Shown piece by piece: positions 28,259-49,761 of a DNA stretch of 64,000 nt. Below the pieces are notes generated by a model. That model searched no databases and was not told the origin of the DNA. It saw only the letters and a program-made list of their open reading frames with translations. Position 1 is the stretch's first letter. Each line of letters starts with the position of its first letter. A program made the position numbers and the translations under genes. Where the stretch lies: NCBI RefSeq assembly GCF_003790525.1, contig NZ_CP033635.1, one strand, 5' to 3'. The stretch comes from Escherichia coli (GTDB lineage: Bacteria; Pseudomonadota; Gammaproteobacteria; Enterobacterales; Enterobacteriaceae).

Positions 28259-28566
28259 AACAATTTCCCTTCATTGAATGAATGGAGATTTACCCAAAAA
28301 CATTTCGGGCGGGATCGAGTATACACAACTAAAGCATGCGAATTACGGCGCGGGTAATTAGTGATGGGGTTTTAGGATAATTGGAATGAATATCAAATAT
28401 AAGCTTCAGATTATATATAAATAACACTAAAAATCATAAGCTTAAAATAAAAATAAAAGTAATTAATCTGCGTATTTTCCGAAATCAATCACGATTAAAA
28501 ATCTATTTTAGGATTAACCTCACGGTATGATTTCCGTTAAATCACAGACAAGGGGATTTATCTGAT

Positions 28567-28596
28567 AAAAAATGCCGACATAACGTCGGCATTTTT
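28567..28596. terminator. bidirectional rho-independent terminator downstream of pgi
   Basis: Hairpin tgccgac-ataa-cgtcggca flanked by an A-run on one side and a T-run on the other. Confidence 0.65.
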
Positions 28597-28611
28597 ATTA
28601 GGGTTATTTAA

Positions 28612-30261
28612 TTAACCGCGCCACGCTTTATAGCGGTTAATCAGACCATTGGTCGAGCTATCGTGGCTGCTGATTTCTTTGTCATCTTTCAGCTCTGGCA
28701 GAATACGGTTCGCCAGTTGTTTACCCAGCTCCACGCCCCACTGGTCGAAGGTGAAGATGTTCAGGATCACGCCCTGAGTAAAGATTTTGTGCTCATACAG
28801 CGCAATCAACGCACCCAGGCTGAACGGAGTGATTTCACGCAGCAGGATGGAGTTGGTCGGGCGGTTACCTTCGAACACTTTGAACGGCACCACGTAGTCA
28901 AGCGTTGCCGGATCTTTACCCTGATCGCGATATTCCTGCTCAACCACTTCGCGGGATTTACCAAACGCCAGCGCTTCGGTCTGAGCGAAGAAGTTAGACA
29001 GCAGTTTCTGGTGATGATCAGAGAGCGGGTTATGGGTGATAGCCGGAGCGATGAAATCGCACGGTACCATTTTGGTTCCCTGGTGGATCAGCTGGTAGAA
29101 CGCGTGCTGACCGTTAGTACCTGGTTCACCCCAGATAATCGGGCCAGTCTGGTAATCCACAACGTTACCGTTACGGTCAACATACTTACCGTTGGACTCC
29201 ATATTGCCCTGCTGGAAGTACGCCGCGAAACGGTGCATATACTGGTCATACGGCAGAATCGCTTCAGTTTCCGCACCAAAGAAATTGTTGTACCAGATGC
29301 CAATCAGCGCCAGCAAGACAGGCAGGTTTTTCTCGGCAGGCGTGGTGGAGAAATGCTTGTCCATCGCGTGTGCGCCAGAAAGCAGTTCAACGAAGTTATC
29401 AAAGCCGATGGAGAGAACAATCGACAGGCCAATCGCTGACCACAAAGAGTAACGACCGCCGACCCAGTCCCAGAATTCGAACATGTTGGCAGTATCAATA
29501 CCAAACTCGCCAACGGCTTTGGCATTGGTGGAAAGCGCCGCAAAGTGTTTCGCAACGTGTTTCTCATCACCTGCCGCTTTCAGGAACCAGTCACGCGCGC
29601 TATGGGCGTTGGTCATGGTTTCCTGAGTGGTGAAGGTTTTAGATGCTACCAGGAACAGCGTGGTTTCCGGGTTTACTTTTTTCAGCACTTCCGCGATGTG
29701 AGTCCCATCGACGTTAGAAACAAAGTGCATGTTCAGGTGGTTTTTGTACGGACGCAGTGCTTCGGTCACCATGTACGGGCCGAGGTCAGAACCACCGATC
29801 CCGATGTTCACTACGTCAGTGATTGCTTTGCCGGTATAGCCTTTCCACTCACCGGAAATAATCGCTTCCGAGAAGGTTTTCATCTTCTCCAGCACCGCGT
29901 TGACTTCCGGCATAACATCTTTGCCATCAACCAGAATCGGGGTATTGCTACGGTTACGCAGCGCTACGTGCAGTACGGCGCGGTTTTCAGTGCGGTTGAT
30001 CTTCTCGCCAGAGAACATCGACTTAATCGCGCCCGCCAGATCGCACTCTTTCGCCAGATCTTGTAATTTCGCCAGCGTCTCTTCAGTGATGCGGTTTTTG
30101 GAGTAATCCACCAGCATCTGATCGTCGAAGGTTACGGAGAACTTAGAAAAACGATCGCCGTCTTTAGCAAAAAGATCGGCGATCGTAACGTCTTTCATTT
30201 CATCGAAGTGTTTCTGTAGTGCCTGCCAGGCAGCGGTCTGCGTTGGATTGATGTTTTTCAT
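28612..30261 (-). CDS. pgi: glucose-6-phosphate isomerase
   Basis: Trimmed to [19 protein letters not shown] (549 aa); recognised as Pgi. Confidence 0.97.
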
Positions 30262-30480
30262 TAGCAATACTCTTCTGATTTTGAGAATTGTGACTTTGGA
30301 AGATTGTAGCGCCAGTCACAGAAAAATGTGATGGTTTTAGTGCCGTTAGCGTAATGTTGAGTGTAAACCCTTAGCGCAGTGAAGCATTTATTAGCTGAAC
30401 TACTGACCGCCAGGAGTGGATGAAAAATCCGCATGACCCCATCGTTGACAACCGCCCCGCTCACCCTTTATTTATAAATG

Positions 30481-30785
30481 TACTACCTGCGCTAGCGCAG
30501 GCCAGAAGAGGCGCGTTGCCCAAGTAACGGTGTTGGAGGAGCCAGTCCTGTGATAACACCTGAGGGGGTGCATCGCCGAGGTGATTGAACGGCTGGCCAC
30601 GTTCATCATCGGCTACAGGGGCTGAATCCCCTGGGTTGTCACCAGAAGCGTTCGCAGTCGGGCGTTTCGCAAGTGGTGGAGCACTTCTGGGTGAAAATAG
30701 TAGCGAAGTATCGCTCTGCGCCCACCCGTCTTCCGCTCTTCCCTTGTGCCAAGGCTGAAAATGGATCCCCTGACACGAGGTAGTT
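30481..30785 (+). ncRNA. lysC 5' leader containing a lysine riboswitch (L-box)
   Basis: About 300-nt leader between a TTGACA/TATAAA-like promoter (about 30445-30476) and the lysC ATG; contains conserved L-box strings AGAGGCGC, GGAGGA, CCGAGGUGAUUGAAC. Confidence 0.75.
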
Positions 30786-32135
30786 ATGTCTGAAATTGTT
30801 GTCTCCAAATTTGGCGGTACCAGCGTAGCTGATTTTGACGCCATGAACCGCAGCGCTGATATTGTGCTTTCTGATGCCAACGTACGTTTAGTTGTCCTCT
30901 CGGCTTCTGCTGGTATCACTAATCTGCTGGTCGCTTTAGCTGAAGGACTGGAACCTGGCGAGCGATTCGAAAAACTCGACGCAATCCGCAATATCCAGTT
31001 TGCCATTCTGGAACGTCTGCGTTACCCGAACGTTATCCGTGAAGAGATTGAACGTCTGCTGGAGAATATTACTGTTCTGGCAGAAGCGGCGGCGCTGGCA
31101 ACGTCTCCGGCCCTGACAGATGAACTGGTCAGCCACGGCGAGCTGATGTCGACCCTGCTGTTTGTCGAAATCCTGCGCGAACGCGATGTTCAGGCACAGT
31201 GGTTTGATGTACGTAAAGTGATGCGTACCAACGACCGATTTGGTCGTGCAGAGCCAGATGTAGCCGCGCTGGCGGAACTGGCCGCGCTGCAGCTGCTCCC
31301 ACGCCTCAATGAAGGCTTAGTGATCACCCAGGGATTTATCGGTAGCGAAAATAAAGGTCGGACAACGACGCTTGGCCGTGGAGGCAGCGATTATACGGCA
31401 GCCTTGCTGGCGGAGGCTTTACACGCATCTCGTGTTGATATCTGGACCGACGTCCCGGGCATCTACACCACCGATCCACGCGTGGTTTCCGCAGCAAAAC
31501 GCATTGATGAAATCGCGTTTGCCGAAGCGGCAGAGATGGCAACTTTTGGTGCAAAAGTACTGCATCCGGCAACGTTGCTACCCGCAGTACGCAGCGATAT
31601 CCCGGTCTTTGTCGGCTCCAGCAAAGACCCACGCGCAGGTGGTACGCTGGTGTGCAATAAAACTGAAAATCCGCCGCTGTTCCGCGCGCTGGCGCTTCGT
31701 CGCAATCAGACTCTGCTCACTTTGCACAGCCTGAATATGCTGCATTCTCGCGGTTTCCTCGCGGAAGTTTTCGGCATCCTCGCGCGGCATAATATTTCGG
31801 TAGACTTAATCACCACGTCAGAAGTGAGCGTGGCATTAACCCTTGATACCACCGGTTCAACCTCCACTGGCGATACGTTGCTGACGCAATCCCTGCTGAT
31901 GGAGCTTTCCGCACTGTGCCGGGTGGAAGTGGAAGAGGGGCTGGCGCTGGTCGCGTTGATTGGCAATGACCTGTCAAAAGCCTGCGGCGTTGGCAAAGAG
32001 GTATTCGGCGTACTGGAACCGTTCAACATTCGCATGATTTGTTACGGCGCATCCAGCCATAACCTGTGCTTCCTGGTGCCCGGCGAAGATGCCGAGCAGG
32101 TGGTGCAGAAGCTGCATTTTAATTTATTTGAGTAA
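30786..32135 (+). CDS. lysC: lysine-sensitive aspartokinase III
   Basis: 449 aa; MSEIVVSKFGGTSVADFDAMNRSADIVL; C-terminal ACT domains. Confidence 0.97.
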   Translation: MSEIVVSKFGGTSVADFDAMNRSADIVLSDANVRLVVLSASAGITNLLVALAEGLEPGERFEKLDAIRNIQFAILERLRYPNVIREEIERLLENITVLAEAAALATSPALTDELVSHGELMSTLLFVEILRERDVQAQWFDVRKVMRTNDRFGRAEPDVAALAELAALQLLPRLNEGLVITQGFIGSENKGRTTTLGRGGSDYTAALLAEALHASRVDIWTDVPGIYTTDPRVVSAAKRIDEIAFAEAAEMATFGAKVLHPATLLPAVRSDIPVFVGSSKDPRAGGTLVCNKTENPPLFRALALRRNQTLLTLHSLNMLHSRGFLAEVFGILARHNISVDLITTSEVSVALTLDTTGSTSTGDTLLTQSLLMELSALCRVEVEEGLALVALIGNDLSKACGVGKEVFGVLEPFNIRMICYGASSHNLCFLVPGEDAEQVVQKLHFNLFE

Positions 32136-32387: not shown

Positions 32388-32660
32388 ATGGCACTCCCCC
32401 GTATTACCCAAAAAGAGATGACTGAACGCGAGCAGCGTGAACTTAAAACACTGCTGGATCGGGCGCGGATTGCGCATGGTCGCGTACTGACCAACTCCGA
32501 AACCAACAGCATTAAGAAAGAGTACATCGATAAATTAATGGTCGAGCGTGAGGCTGAAGCGAAAAAAGCCCGCCAGTTAAAGAAAAAGCAGGCTTATAAA
32601 CCGGATCCTGAGGCGTCATTTAGCTGGTCAGCAAATACGTCGACGCGCGGCAGGCGCTGA
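32388..32660 (+). CDS. yjbD: small conserved protein YjbD (DUF3811)
   Basis: 90 aa; MALPRITQKEMTEREQRELKTLLDRARIAHG. Confidence 0.85.
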   Translation: MALPRITQKEMTEREQRELKTLLDRARIAHGRVLTNSETNSIKKEYIDKLMVEREAEAKKARQLKKKQAYKPDPEASFSWSANTSTRGRR

Positions 32661-33533
32661 TTAACGTCCCTTCTTTTTTCGCCCCGGCGAGGTAAAACGC
32701 TTACCGTTGGACGCCGGGCGACCGCCTTTTTCCGCCGTTTTTTCCATCTTGACGACTGGACGTTTGATGCCTACCGTTTTCGGCTTGGCCTTCGCTTTAG
32801 GTTTTGCCTCGGAAGAGGAATTTTCGATGAGCTTAAAGAGGTCGATTAACTCATCGTCGGTTAAATCGCGCCACTCACCCAGCGGAATGCCGCTTAAACT
32901 GACGTTCATAATGCGCGTACGTTCCAGCTTTTTCACTTCGTAACCAAAGTGCTCGCACATGCGACGGATCTGACGGTTCAGCCCCTGCACCAGGGTAATG
33001 CGGAAGACAAACGGCGCTTCTTTTTTGACTTTGCACTTTTTCGTCACCGTCCCGAGGATCGGTACTCCCGCCCCCATACCACGAATAAATTCATCGGTAA
33101 TCGGTTTATCAACCGTCACCAGATACTCTTTCTCATGATCGTTACCCGCACGGAGGATCTTATTCACCAGATCGCCGTGATTGGTGAGGAAAATCAGCCC
33201 CTGGGAATCTTTATCCAGGCGGCCAATCGGGAACACGCGTTTGCTGTGGTTAACGAAATCGACAATGTTATCGCGCTCGCCATCTTCGGTGGTGCTGACA
33301 ATACCGACGGGCTTGTTCAGGGCGATAAGTACCAAATCTTCGGCTTCCCGAGGCTCAATCAACTGACCGTTTACTTTCACAACGTCGCCGGGTTTCACCT
33401 GATCGCCAATGGTGGCTCGCTTGCCATTAAGGAACACATTGCCTTGCTCGATATAGCGATCCGCTTCGCGGCGTGAGCAAATTCCGCTTTCGCTGATGTA
33501 TTTATTTAAACGGACTGATGAGTCGGGCAGCAT
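32661..33533 (-). CDS. rluF: 23S rRNA pseudouridine synthase F
   Basis: 290 aa with S4 domain and RsuA-family catalytic region ([10 protein letters not shown]); Lys-rich C-terminal tail. Confidence 0.93.
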
Positions 33534-49627: not shown

Positions 49628-49761
49628 TGCCGGATGCGGCGTAAACGCCTTATCCAGCCTACGTTCGGCAACGGTTGTAGGCATGATAAGACGCGCAAGC
49701 GTCGCATCAGGCATCGTGCACCGATTGCCGGATGCGGCGTAAATGCCTTATCCGGCCTACA
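49628..49761. repeat. BIME: REP elements in the aceA-aceK intergenic region
   Basis: Three REP palindromes at 49628-49662, 49677-49712 and 49726-49761. Confidence 0.8.

What the first reader, a model, noticed from the sequence alone, without database searches (positions are those of the whole stretch)
30481..30785. Lysine riboswitch in the lysC leader, sharing a divergent control region with pgi
The long untranslated leader with conserved L-box sequence elements is expected for lysC; its presence confirms the locus and indicates lysine-dependent control is intact.
Basis: partly seen in the sequence, partly recalled or inferred. Interest (0 to 1): 0.25.

Follow-up and report, generated by a model that had tools for sequence, protein, structure and literature searches.

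The report
Known E. coli lysC lysine riboswitch
This is the well-studied lysine-sensing RNA switch in front of the E. coli aspartokinase gene lysC, base-for-base identical to the laboratory strain K-12, so it is real and almost certainly functional but entirely ordinary.

Summary
Rfam's Lysine riboswitch model (RF00168) matches window 30498-30694 (+) full length at 99.5 bits (gathering score 30, E = 2.6e-26). The match lies inside the reported interval and directly upstream of lysC (30786-32135). The interval 30481-30785 is essentially the whole 306-nt lysC 5' UTR: published landmarks place the transcription start at 30480.

The 524-bp pgi-lysC intergenic region is 524/524 identical to E. coli K-12 MG1655. 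It is at least 99% identical in 5420 of 5426 complete E. coli genomes, and RefSeq already annotates the riboswitch there. This exact sequence has published evidence for lysine-dependent Shine-Dalgarno sequestration, RNase E cleavage and Rho termination.

In 18 orthologous Enterobacterales leaders the aptamer helices covary strongly. The expression-platform helices are 97-99% pairable but nearly invariant, so covariation neither proves nor contradicts them.

The "shared control region with pgi" is positional only. The switch lies downstream of the lysC start site, and five lineages keep the promoter and leader with pgi about 2 kb away.

Verdict: already known, low interest. Side notes: a conserved 5' hairpin, repeat-element insertions in relatives, and an IS1 insertion in one E. 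coli strain.

The parts
30445..30450 (+). lysC promoter -35 box, TTGACA
   Evidence: Read from the sequence. [AG]TTGACA was found at the same place in 17 of the 18 Enterobacterales orthologs by the motif search; L078 failed that search but shows ATTGACA at this position in the alignment. The function is inferred.
30469..30474 (+). Probable -10 box, TATTTA (18-bp spacer; ends 6 nt before the start site)
   Evidence: Inferred from its position relative to the start site at 30480 and from conservation as TATTTA/TATTTC in orthologs. It is a weak consensus match (3/6) and was not picked up by the simple promoter scan.
30480..30480 (+). lysC transcription start (+1 in the published numbering)
   Evidence: Seven published landmarks (G309, G349, U354-357, A364 of PMC10946432) all match only with +1 = 30480.
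30486..30501 (+). 5'-proximal hairpin 'P0' (CCUGCG-CUAG-CGCAGG); outside the Rfam helices and abutting P1
   Evidence: Predicted in every fold. All 15 distinct orthologs fold a 6-12 bp hairpin at the same distance from the promoter, with different sequences. It stays next to the promoter when a repeat element is inserted before P1.
30498..30694 (+). Lysine riboswitch aptamer (Rfam RF00168 match). P1 30502-08:30684-90; P2 30513-21:30568-76; P2b 30528-35:30554-61; P3 30580-91:30600-10; P4 30611-21:30628-37; P5 30639-45:30673-79, with an 18-nt insertion in the P5 loop
   Evidence: 99.5 bits; helix map. In one search, 18 pairs have changes on both sides (0 of 500 shuffles reach this), concentrated in P2, P2b and P3. 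RefSeq annotates 'riboswitch' at the same coordinates in identical genomes.
30669..30693 (+). 5' strand of the antisequester (anti-P1) helix; overlaps the 3' strands of P5 and P1
   Evidence: Pairs with 30723-30747 in the unconstrained fold. The upper helix is 96.9% pairable across orthologs with no compensatory changes. The existence of an anti-P1 stem comes from PMC10946432 and PMC5234074; the exact pairs are my inference.
30714..30743 (+). C-rich, G-poor tract (17 C, 4 G in 30 nt; +235 to +264): published rut site and RNase E target region, and 3' strand of the antisequester helix
   Evidence: composition maximum. PMC10946432 places the rut site at about +240.
30729..30732 (+). RNase E 'Site1' (UCUU, +250 to +253)
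   Evidence: Position taken from PMC10946432 (deletion of 250-253) and mapped with +1 = 30480.
30742..30748 (+). Sequester strand CCUUGUG; pairs either with the P5 3' strand (ON state) or with the Shine-Dalgarno region (OFF state)
   Evidence: 7-bp complementarity to 30774-30780 read from the sequence. The helix is 99.2% pairable in orthologs: 4 pairs invariant, 2 with compatible one-sided changes, 1 with a single unpaired cell, no compensatory change.
30774..30780 (+). Shine-Dalgarno region CACGAGG (GAGG at 30777-30780)
   Evidence: Sits 5 nt upstream of the AUG. ACACGAGG is nearly invariant across Enterobacterales. SD sequestration on lysine binding is published for this sequence (PMC10946432).
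30786..30788 (+). lysC start codon; its G (30788) is the published RNAP pause and Rho/NusG termination site G309
   Evidence: PMC10946432 and PMC5234074.
30786..32135 (+). lysC, lysine-sensitive aspartokinase 3 (the regulated gene)
   Evidence: NF006570 equivalog, 766.9 bits against a cutoff of 455.

Best explanation
This is the Escherichia coli lysC lysine riboswitch (L-box, Rfam RF00168) with its expression platform, in wild-type form. It is an OFF switch. With lysine bound, the five-helix aptamer including P1 and P5 is locked. That releases the C-rich tract at 30714-30747, and its CCUUGUG end (30742-48) pairs with the Shine-Dalgarno region CACGAGG (30774-80), blocking translation initiation. 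The now single-stranded C-rich tract is also exposed to RNase E (Site1, 30729-32) and to Rho, which with NusG terminates at the AUG (G309 = 30788). Without lysine, the 3' strands of P5 and P1 (30669-93) pair with the C-rich tract instead (antisequester or anti-P1 helix). This frees the SD and hides the RNase E/Rho site, so lysC is translated. Shown here: the identity of the aptamer, its covariation, and sequence identity to K-12. Taken from the literature for the identical sequence: lysine dependence, SD sequestration, RNase E and Rho involvement. Inferred by me: the exact base pairs of the two platform helices.
For: - RF00168 full-length hit at 99.5 bits, E = 2.6e-26; 47/51 model pairs are canonical.
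- The intergenic region is 524/524 identical to K-12 MG1655. It is at least 99% identical in 5420 of 5426 complete E. coli genomes, and RefSeq annotates 'riboswitch' there.
- lysC lies immediately downstream.
- All 16 orthologous leaders scanned are RF00168 hits of 79-100 bits.
- Aptamer helices covary: 18 pairs change on both sides, 0 of 500 shuffles reach this, and 92% of cells pair against 40-48% when partners are slid.
- The sequester helix is 99.2% pairable and the antisequester helix 96.9% pairable across orthologs.
- Published landmark positions map exactly, and the C-rich tract peaks at +235 to +264 as published.
- No intrinsic terminator is predicted on the + strand between aptamer and AUG, which fits a translational/Rho platform.
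- The mechanism is published for this sequence: PMC10946432, PMC5499598, PMC5234074.
Against: - The platform helices have no compensatory changes: sequester 0, antisequester upper helix 0, lower stem 1 pair. The antisequester structure as a whole does not exceed the shuffle controls. Comparative support is therefore conservation and compatibility only.
- Nearest-neighbour folding does not pick the sequester helix on its own. With the aptamer enforced, the sequester structure is -105.7 kcal/mol against -107.0 for an alternative.
- The unconstrained minimum-energy fold does not reproduce the aptamer junction.
- In my ON-state model, Site1 lies in an internal loop flanked by helices rather than in Watson-Crick pairs. 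The paper describes it as sequestered in a double-stranded region, and I could not see the published figure.
- Lysine binding itself was not and cannot be tested here.
Confidence: 0.96

Rival explanations
1. The Shine-Dalgarno region is masked by the extreme 5' end of the mRNA (ACUACCU 30482-88 pairing with AGGUAGU 30778-84) rather than by the CCUUGUG strand.
For: There are seven uninterrupted Watson-Crick pairs in the window. Part of this pairing (30485-88 with 30778-81) appears in the unconstrained folds, and the outer part (30482-85 with 30781-84) in the aptamer-constrained folds.
Against: The pairing is not maintained in orthologs and changes are not compensated. Pseudocitrobacter has an A-C mismatch and RIT691 a U-U mismatch. 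Kosakonia, Erwinia and Tatumella have no complementarity beyond CCU:AGG. It also competes with the conserved P0 hairpin, which uses the same CCU.
Confidence: 0.05
2. It is a transcription-attenuating lysine riboswitch with an intrinsic terminator, like the Bacillus subtilis lysC L-box.
For: It has the same aptamer family and the same regulated gene.
Against: No terminator-like hairpin followed by a U-run is found on the + strand between the aptamer and the AUG; the only site in that stretch, 30715-30702, is on the - strand. The platform instead contains SD-complementary and C-rich elements. The literature reports translational, RNase E and Rho control for this sequence (PMC10946432).
Confidence: 0.02
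3. The riboswitch DNA or leader is part of a regulatory region truly shared with the divergent pgi gene, so that lysine also affects pgi.
For: The genes are divergent and 524 bp apart. The whole intergenic region, including the 218 bp upstream of the lysC start site, has 0 differences from K-12, against 28/1650 in pgi and 24/1350 in lysC.
Against: The aptamer lies downstream of the lysC start site and is not on the pgi transcript. The pgi-side promoter-like site at 30332-30303 is 112 bp from the lysC -35 box. In RIT691, two Erwinia, Enterobacter CC120223-11 and Tatumella, pgi is about 2 kb from the leader, yet the promoter and leader are retained.
Confidence: 0.03
4. It is a decayed or inactive copy that still scores against the model.
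For: None found.
Against: It is identical to the experimentally active K-12 sequence, near-invariant across 5420 genomes, matches the model full length, and the lysC ORF is intact.
Confidence: 0.01

Closest known systems
E. coli K-12 MG1655 lysC lysine riboswitch (studied by Caron et al. 2012 as cited in PMC10946432, Bastet et al. 2017 PMC5499598, and Ghosh et al. 2024 PMC10946432)
   Same: Everything. The 524-bp intergenic region is 524/524 identical, with the same flanking genes and orientation. Published positions (Site1 at 250-253, rut at about 240, G309, G349, U354-357, A364) map exactly.
   Different: Nothing within the element. The flanking genes differ from K-12 by about 1.7-1.8%, so the window comes from another E. 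coli lineage.
Bacillus subtilis lysC L-box riboswitch (same Rfam family RF00168)
   Same: Same aptamer architecture (five helices around a junction), same ligand and same regulated enzyme. This rests on family membership by covariance model; the B. subtilis details are from my own knowledge.
   Different: The expression platform differs. B. subtilis uses an intrinsic terminator. Here no + strand terminator is predicted, and control is by SD sequestration, RNase E and Rho (PMC10946432). The E. coli P5 loop carries an 18-nt insertion relative to the family consensus.
Other E. coli translational riboswitches that also recruit Rho (thiM, thiC, thiB, ribB)
   Same: They have an SD-sequestering platform, a transcriptional pause near the start codon and Rho-dependent termination (PMC5499598, PMC5234074).
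   Different: The ligands and aptamer folds differ. In lysC, the RNase E and rut sites lie within the riboswitch platform itself, which is described as nucleolytic repression (PMC10946432).

Membership tests
Lysine riboswitch / L-box (Rfam RF00168) | Covariance-model score above the curated gathering threshold, over the full model | tested here: met
   99.5 bits against a gathering score of 30; model positions 1-182 of 182; E = 2.6e-26. Still the only Lysine hit in the whole window.
Lysine riboswitch / L-box (Rfam RF00168) | Five helices (P1-P5) around a central junction that can actually form in this sequence | tested here: met
   51 model pairs map onto the sequence and 47 are canonical. The helices are P1, P2, P2b, P3, P4 and P5.
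Lysine riboswitch / L-box (Rfam RF00168) | Helices supported by compensatory substitutions in relatives | tested here: met
   In 19 Enterobacterales leaders (17 distinct), 18 pairs have changes on both sides (0 of 500 shuffles reach this), and 92.3% of cells pair against 40-48% when partners are slid. P1 and P5 are invariant and so uninformative.
Lysine riboswitch / L-box (Rfam RF00168) | Conserved junction and core nucleotides | tested here: met
   41 of 49 upper-case consensus positions are matched. Core motifs AGAGGCGC, CGCCGAGG, UGUCACC and GGUGGAGC are present.
Lysine riboswitch / L-box (Rfam RF00168) | Located in the 5' leader of a lysine biosynthesis or transport gene, on the same strand | tested here: met
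   The aptamer ends 91 nt upstream of the lysC AUG, on the same strand and downstream of the mapped start site.
Lysine riboswitch / L-box (Rfam RF00168) | Direct, specific binding of L-lysine by the RNA | not testable with these tools
   Not measurable in silico. Lysine-dependent effects are published for the identical K-12 sequence (PMC10946432).
Translational OFF-switch platform (SD sequestration with antisequester) | A strand that can pair alternatively with the aptamer's 3' side or with the SD | tested here: inconclusive
   The complementarities exist and are 97-99% pairable in orthologs. However, the columns are almost invariant, there is no compensatory change in either helix, and the antisequester structure does not exceed shuffles. 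Thermodynamic folding is indifferent, at -105.7 against -107.0 kcal/mol. The literature supports the mechanism.
Terminator-type L-box platform (Bacillus type) | Intrinsic terminator between aptamer and start codon | tested here: not met
   No + strand terminator-like site in 30695-30785.

The most novel reading that the evidence does not exclude
The leader may contain a functional module not covered by the Rfam model: a promoter-proximal 5' hairpin (P0, 30486-30501). Its structure, though not its sequence, is kept in all 15 distinct Enterobacterales orthologs. It stays at the mRNA 5' end when ERIC-like repeats insert between it and P1. It could set basal lysC mRNA stability, for example by limiting 5'-end-dependent RNase E entry, independently of lysine. 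I do not know whether this has already been described in the primary literature on lysC.
Probability: 0.3. Interest if true: 0.15.

Novelty: already known. Interest (0 to 1): 0.05.

Why it matters
It matters only as an annotation check. It confirms that the window is E. coli chromosome around pgi-lysC and that lysC carries its normal, wild-type lysine-sensing leader. The element is one of the best-characterised riboswitches in the best-characterised bacterium, so nothing new follows for riboswitch biology. The small added value is comparative. Across Enterobacterales, the strands that must pair in two alternative structures (P1, the P5 3' strand, the C-rich tract, the SD) are frozen, whereas the single-role helices P2 and P3 drift with compensation.

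Tried and rejected
1. Unconstrained minimum-energy folding of the leader does not reproduce the aptamer junction. It produces long-range pairings that depend on where the 3' end is cut, so I used it only to locate the antisequester helix.
2. The 5'-end:SD pairing was rejected on comparative grounds.
3. A small hairpin CCUUG(30742-46):CAAGG(30750-54) was considered as an ON-state element. It is rejected because A30752U in three lineages and G30754A in Tatumella break it without compensation.
4. Fetching Caron et al. 2012 by DOI failed because the paper is not held. The published secondary-structure figure could therefore not be compared pair by pair.
5. The genome-collection pattern was strict. 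It returned 118 loci but only 18 Enterobacterales, and it missed Salmonella, Klebsiella, Citrobacter and E. coli itself. The covariation sample for the platform is therefore small, and about 100 non-enterobacterial loci were not analysed further.
6. The simple promoter scan did not find the lysC promoter. The -10 box is assigned by position and conservation only.

Full report
**Observation.** The score is 99.5 bits against a gathering score of 30, with E = 2.6e-26. It remains the only Lysine hit when the whole 64-kb window is scanned. Mapping the model's structure line onto the sequence gives P1 30503-08:30684-89 (extendable by C30502-G30690), P2 30513-21:30568-76, P2b 30528-35:30554-61, P3 30580-91:30600-10, P4 30611-21:30628-37 and P5 30639-45:30673-79. 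Of 51 mapped pairs, 47 are canonical. 41 of the 49 most conserved consensus positions are matched. P5 carries an 18-nt insertion relative to the family consensus.

**Context.**
- The ORF starting 91 nt downstream of the aptamer (30786-32135, +) is lysine-sensitive aspartokinase 3 (NF006570, 767 bits).
- The divergent ORF 28612-30261 (-) is glucose-6-phosphate isomerase.
- The 524-bp intergenic region matches 5425 of 5426 complete E. coli genomes, with at least 99% identity in 5420 of them.
- RefSeq annotates 'riboswitch' at exactly the Rfam coordinates.
- The region is 524/524 identical to K-12 MG1655, whereas pgi and lysC differ from K-12 at 28/1650 and 24/1350 positions.
- The window is therefore a non-K-12 E. 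coli lineage carrying the wild-type lysC leader.

**Anatomy of the leader.** Ghosh et al. 2024 (PMC10946432) number the leader from the transcription start. They report G309 coinciding with the AUG, further termination products at G349, U354-357 and A364, RNase E Site1 at 250-253, and a C-rich rut region near 240.
- All seven nucleotide landmarks match the window only if +1 = 30480; no other offset within +/-10 matches more than four.
- The reported interval 30481-30785 is thus +2 to +306 of a 306-nt 5' UTR.
- Site1 maps to UCUU at 30729-32.
- The maximum of C minus G in 30-nt windows is at 30714-43 (+235 to +264; 17 C, 4 G), as published.
- Upstream, TTGACA (30445-50) followed after 18 bp by TATTTA (30469-74) is the likely promoter. 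The -35 box, and a TATTT[A/C] at the -10 position, are conserved in orthologs. The -10 assignment is my inference.

**Mechanism.** The literature for this exact sequence states that lysine binding stabilises P1 and sequesters the Shine-Dalgarno sequence. It also exposes RNase E sites and a rut site that are hidden in the ligand-free state by an anti-P1 (antisequestering) stem, and Rho/NusG termination at G309 is enhanced by lysine (PMC10946432; also PMC5499598 and PMC5234074).

I looked for the corresponding pairings.
- In unconstrained folds, the 3' strands of P5 and P1 (30669-82 and 30688-93) pair with 30735-47 and 30723-28. This large interrupted helix encloses a small hairpin.
- The 3' end of that tract, CCUUGUG (30742-48), is complementary to CACGAGG (30774-80), which contains the SD GAGG.
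- This gives the classical three-strand switch. With the aptamer closed, CCUUGUG is free and the SD is masked. With the aptamer open, CCUUGUG is held by the antisequester and the SD is free.
- Thermodynamics alone does not decide. With the aptamer helices enforced, the structure with the sequester helix is -105.7 kcal/mol against -107.0 for an alternative. Lysine binding and tertiary contacts are not modelled.
- In my ON model, Site1 lies in an internal loop between two helices rather than in base pairs. I could not check this against the published figure.

**Comparative test.** One DNA-pattern scan of the genome collection returned 118 loci. Eighteen are Enterobacterales lysC leaders 62-99% identical to the window, and the 16 scanned are all RF00168 hits of 79-100 bits.

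| Structure tested | Cells paired | Pairs changed on both sides | Controls |
|---|---|---|---|
| Aptamer plus sequester | 92.3% | 18 (mostly P2, P2b, P3) | 0 of 500 shuffles reach this; 40-48% paired when slid |
| Sequester helix alone | 99.2% | 0 (4 invariant, 2 compatible one-sided, 1 with a single unpaired cell) | not separately tested |
| Antisequester upper helix | 96.9% | 0 | antisequester structure as a whole does not exceed shuffles |
| Antisequester lower stem | 81% | 1 | as above |
| Enclosed hairpin | 94% | 0 | as above |

P1 and P5 are invariant. The platform model is therefore conserved and compatible but not proven by covariation. The pattern makes sense: nucleotides with two alternative partners are frozen, while single-role helices drift with compensation.

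**Rival pairing.** The extreme 5' end (ACUACCU, 30482-88) forms seven Watson-Crick pairs with AGGUAGU (30778-84), and parts of this pairing appear in the folds. It is not maintained in orthologs. Pseudocitrobacter has an A-C mismatch, RIT691 a U-U mismatch, and Kosakonia, Erwinia and Tatumella show no complementarity. I reject it as a conserved feature.

**The pgi clause.**
- The switch is RNA downstream of the lysC start site.
- The only pgi-side promoter-like site is at 30332-30303 on the - strand, 112 bp from the lysC -35 box.
- pgi is the divergent neighbour in most orthologous loci. In RIT691, two Erwinia, Enterobacter CC120223-11 and Tatumella it lies about 2 kb from the leader, while the promoter, 5' hairpin and riboswitch are retained.
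- 'Shared control region' is therefore a positional description, not a functional one.
- The complete identity of the 218 bp upstream of the start site to K-12 is mildly notable but not evidence for shared control.

**An element outside the Rfam model.** A hairpin at 30486-30501 (CCUGCG-CUAG-CGCAGG) begins 6 nt from the start site and abuts P1. All 15 distinct orthologs fold a 6-12 bp hairpin at the same distance from the promoter, with different sequences such as CUCCGCG/CGCGGAG and UACGUA/UACGUA. In E. albertii, three Kosakonia, Enterobacter EA-1 and UBA3516, one or more copies of a repeat resembling ERIC/IRU lie between this hairpin and P1, so the hairpin stays at the 5' end. The ERIC/IRU resemblance is from memory and was not tested. 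A role in mRNA stability is plausible but untested.

**Verdict.** The finding is correct and the element is already known in full detail. Novelty: already known. Interest: low.

Noticed in passing
window 32660/32661 (yjbD 32388-32660 +, rluF 32661-33533 -): The convergent genes yjbD and rluF abut with 0 bp between their stop codons. K-12 MG1655 and strain 720632 have a 132-bp GC-rich spacer there. E. coli EECO1006 has the same zero-spacer junction, so this is a natural presence/absence polymorphism of an intergenic element. rluF is also more diverged from K-12 (95.1% identity) than its neighbours, which are about 98%.
   Followed up: partly
window 28455-28603 (+), between yjbE and the 3' end of pgi: Rfam hit to the enterobacterial sRNA STnc430 (84.5 bits against a gathering score of 47), oriented convergent with pgi. 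Its terminator hairpin (about 28572-28595) also scores on the - strand, so it may serve as a bidirectional terminator for pgi. Syntenic STnc430 hits occur downstream of pgi in Pseudocitrobacter (L013) and Escherichia sp. (L072); a further STnc430 hit in UBA3516 (L067) lies about 1.8 kb from the riboswitch on its lysC side.
   Followed up: partly
window 28259-28611 (yjbE-pgi spacer): The spacer is 353 bp in the window but 498 bp in K-12. In Escherichia sp. MOD1-EC7003 the same spacer holds an naRNA4 (REP-derived) Rfam hit (L072 1865-1936), which suggests a REP-element presence/absence polymorphism.
   Followed up: partly
L004 about 2008-2095 (E. albertii); also L053, L101, L109 (Kosakonia), L066 (Enterobacter EA-1), L067 (UBA3516): One to several copies of an inverted-repeat element (ATTACC...GGTAAT ends; the Kosakonia copies contain GGGAGCTTAC...GTAAGTGACCGGGG) are inserted within the lysC 5' UTR, exactly between the 5' hairpin and P1. 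They lengthen the leader by about 50-385 nt. The element resembles ERIC/IRU from memory; this was not tested. The site looks like an insertion hot spot that the riboswitch tolerates.
   Followed up: partly
L121 4444-5141 (E. coli EECO1006, NZ_CP090319.1): An IS1 element is inserted immediately after the aptamer: the match to the window stops at query base 431, which is window 30692. This separates the aptamer from its expression platform and from lysC. It is a natural allele in which lysine control of lysC is probably lost or altered.
   Followed up: no
window 55415-60913 (-), 16622-16692 (-) and 49680-49757 (-): The whole-window Rfam scan shows a complete rRNA operon on the - strand: 16S at 59372-60913, a spacer tRNA at 59214-59286, a StyR-44 hit at 59025-59133, 23S at 56114-59017 and 5S at 55904-56019. 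There is also an isrC hit at 55415-55537 and two naRNA4 (REP-derived) hits.
   Followed up: no
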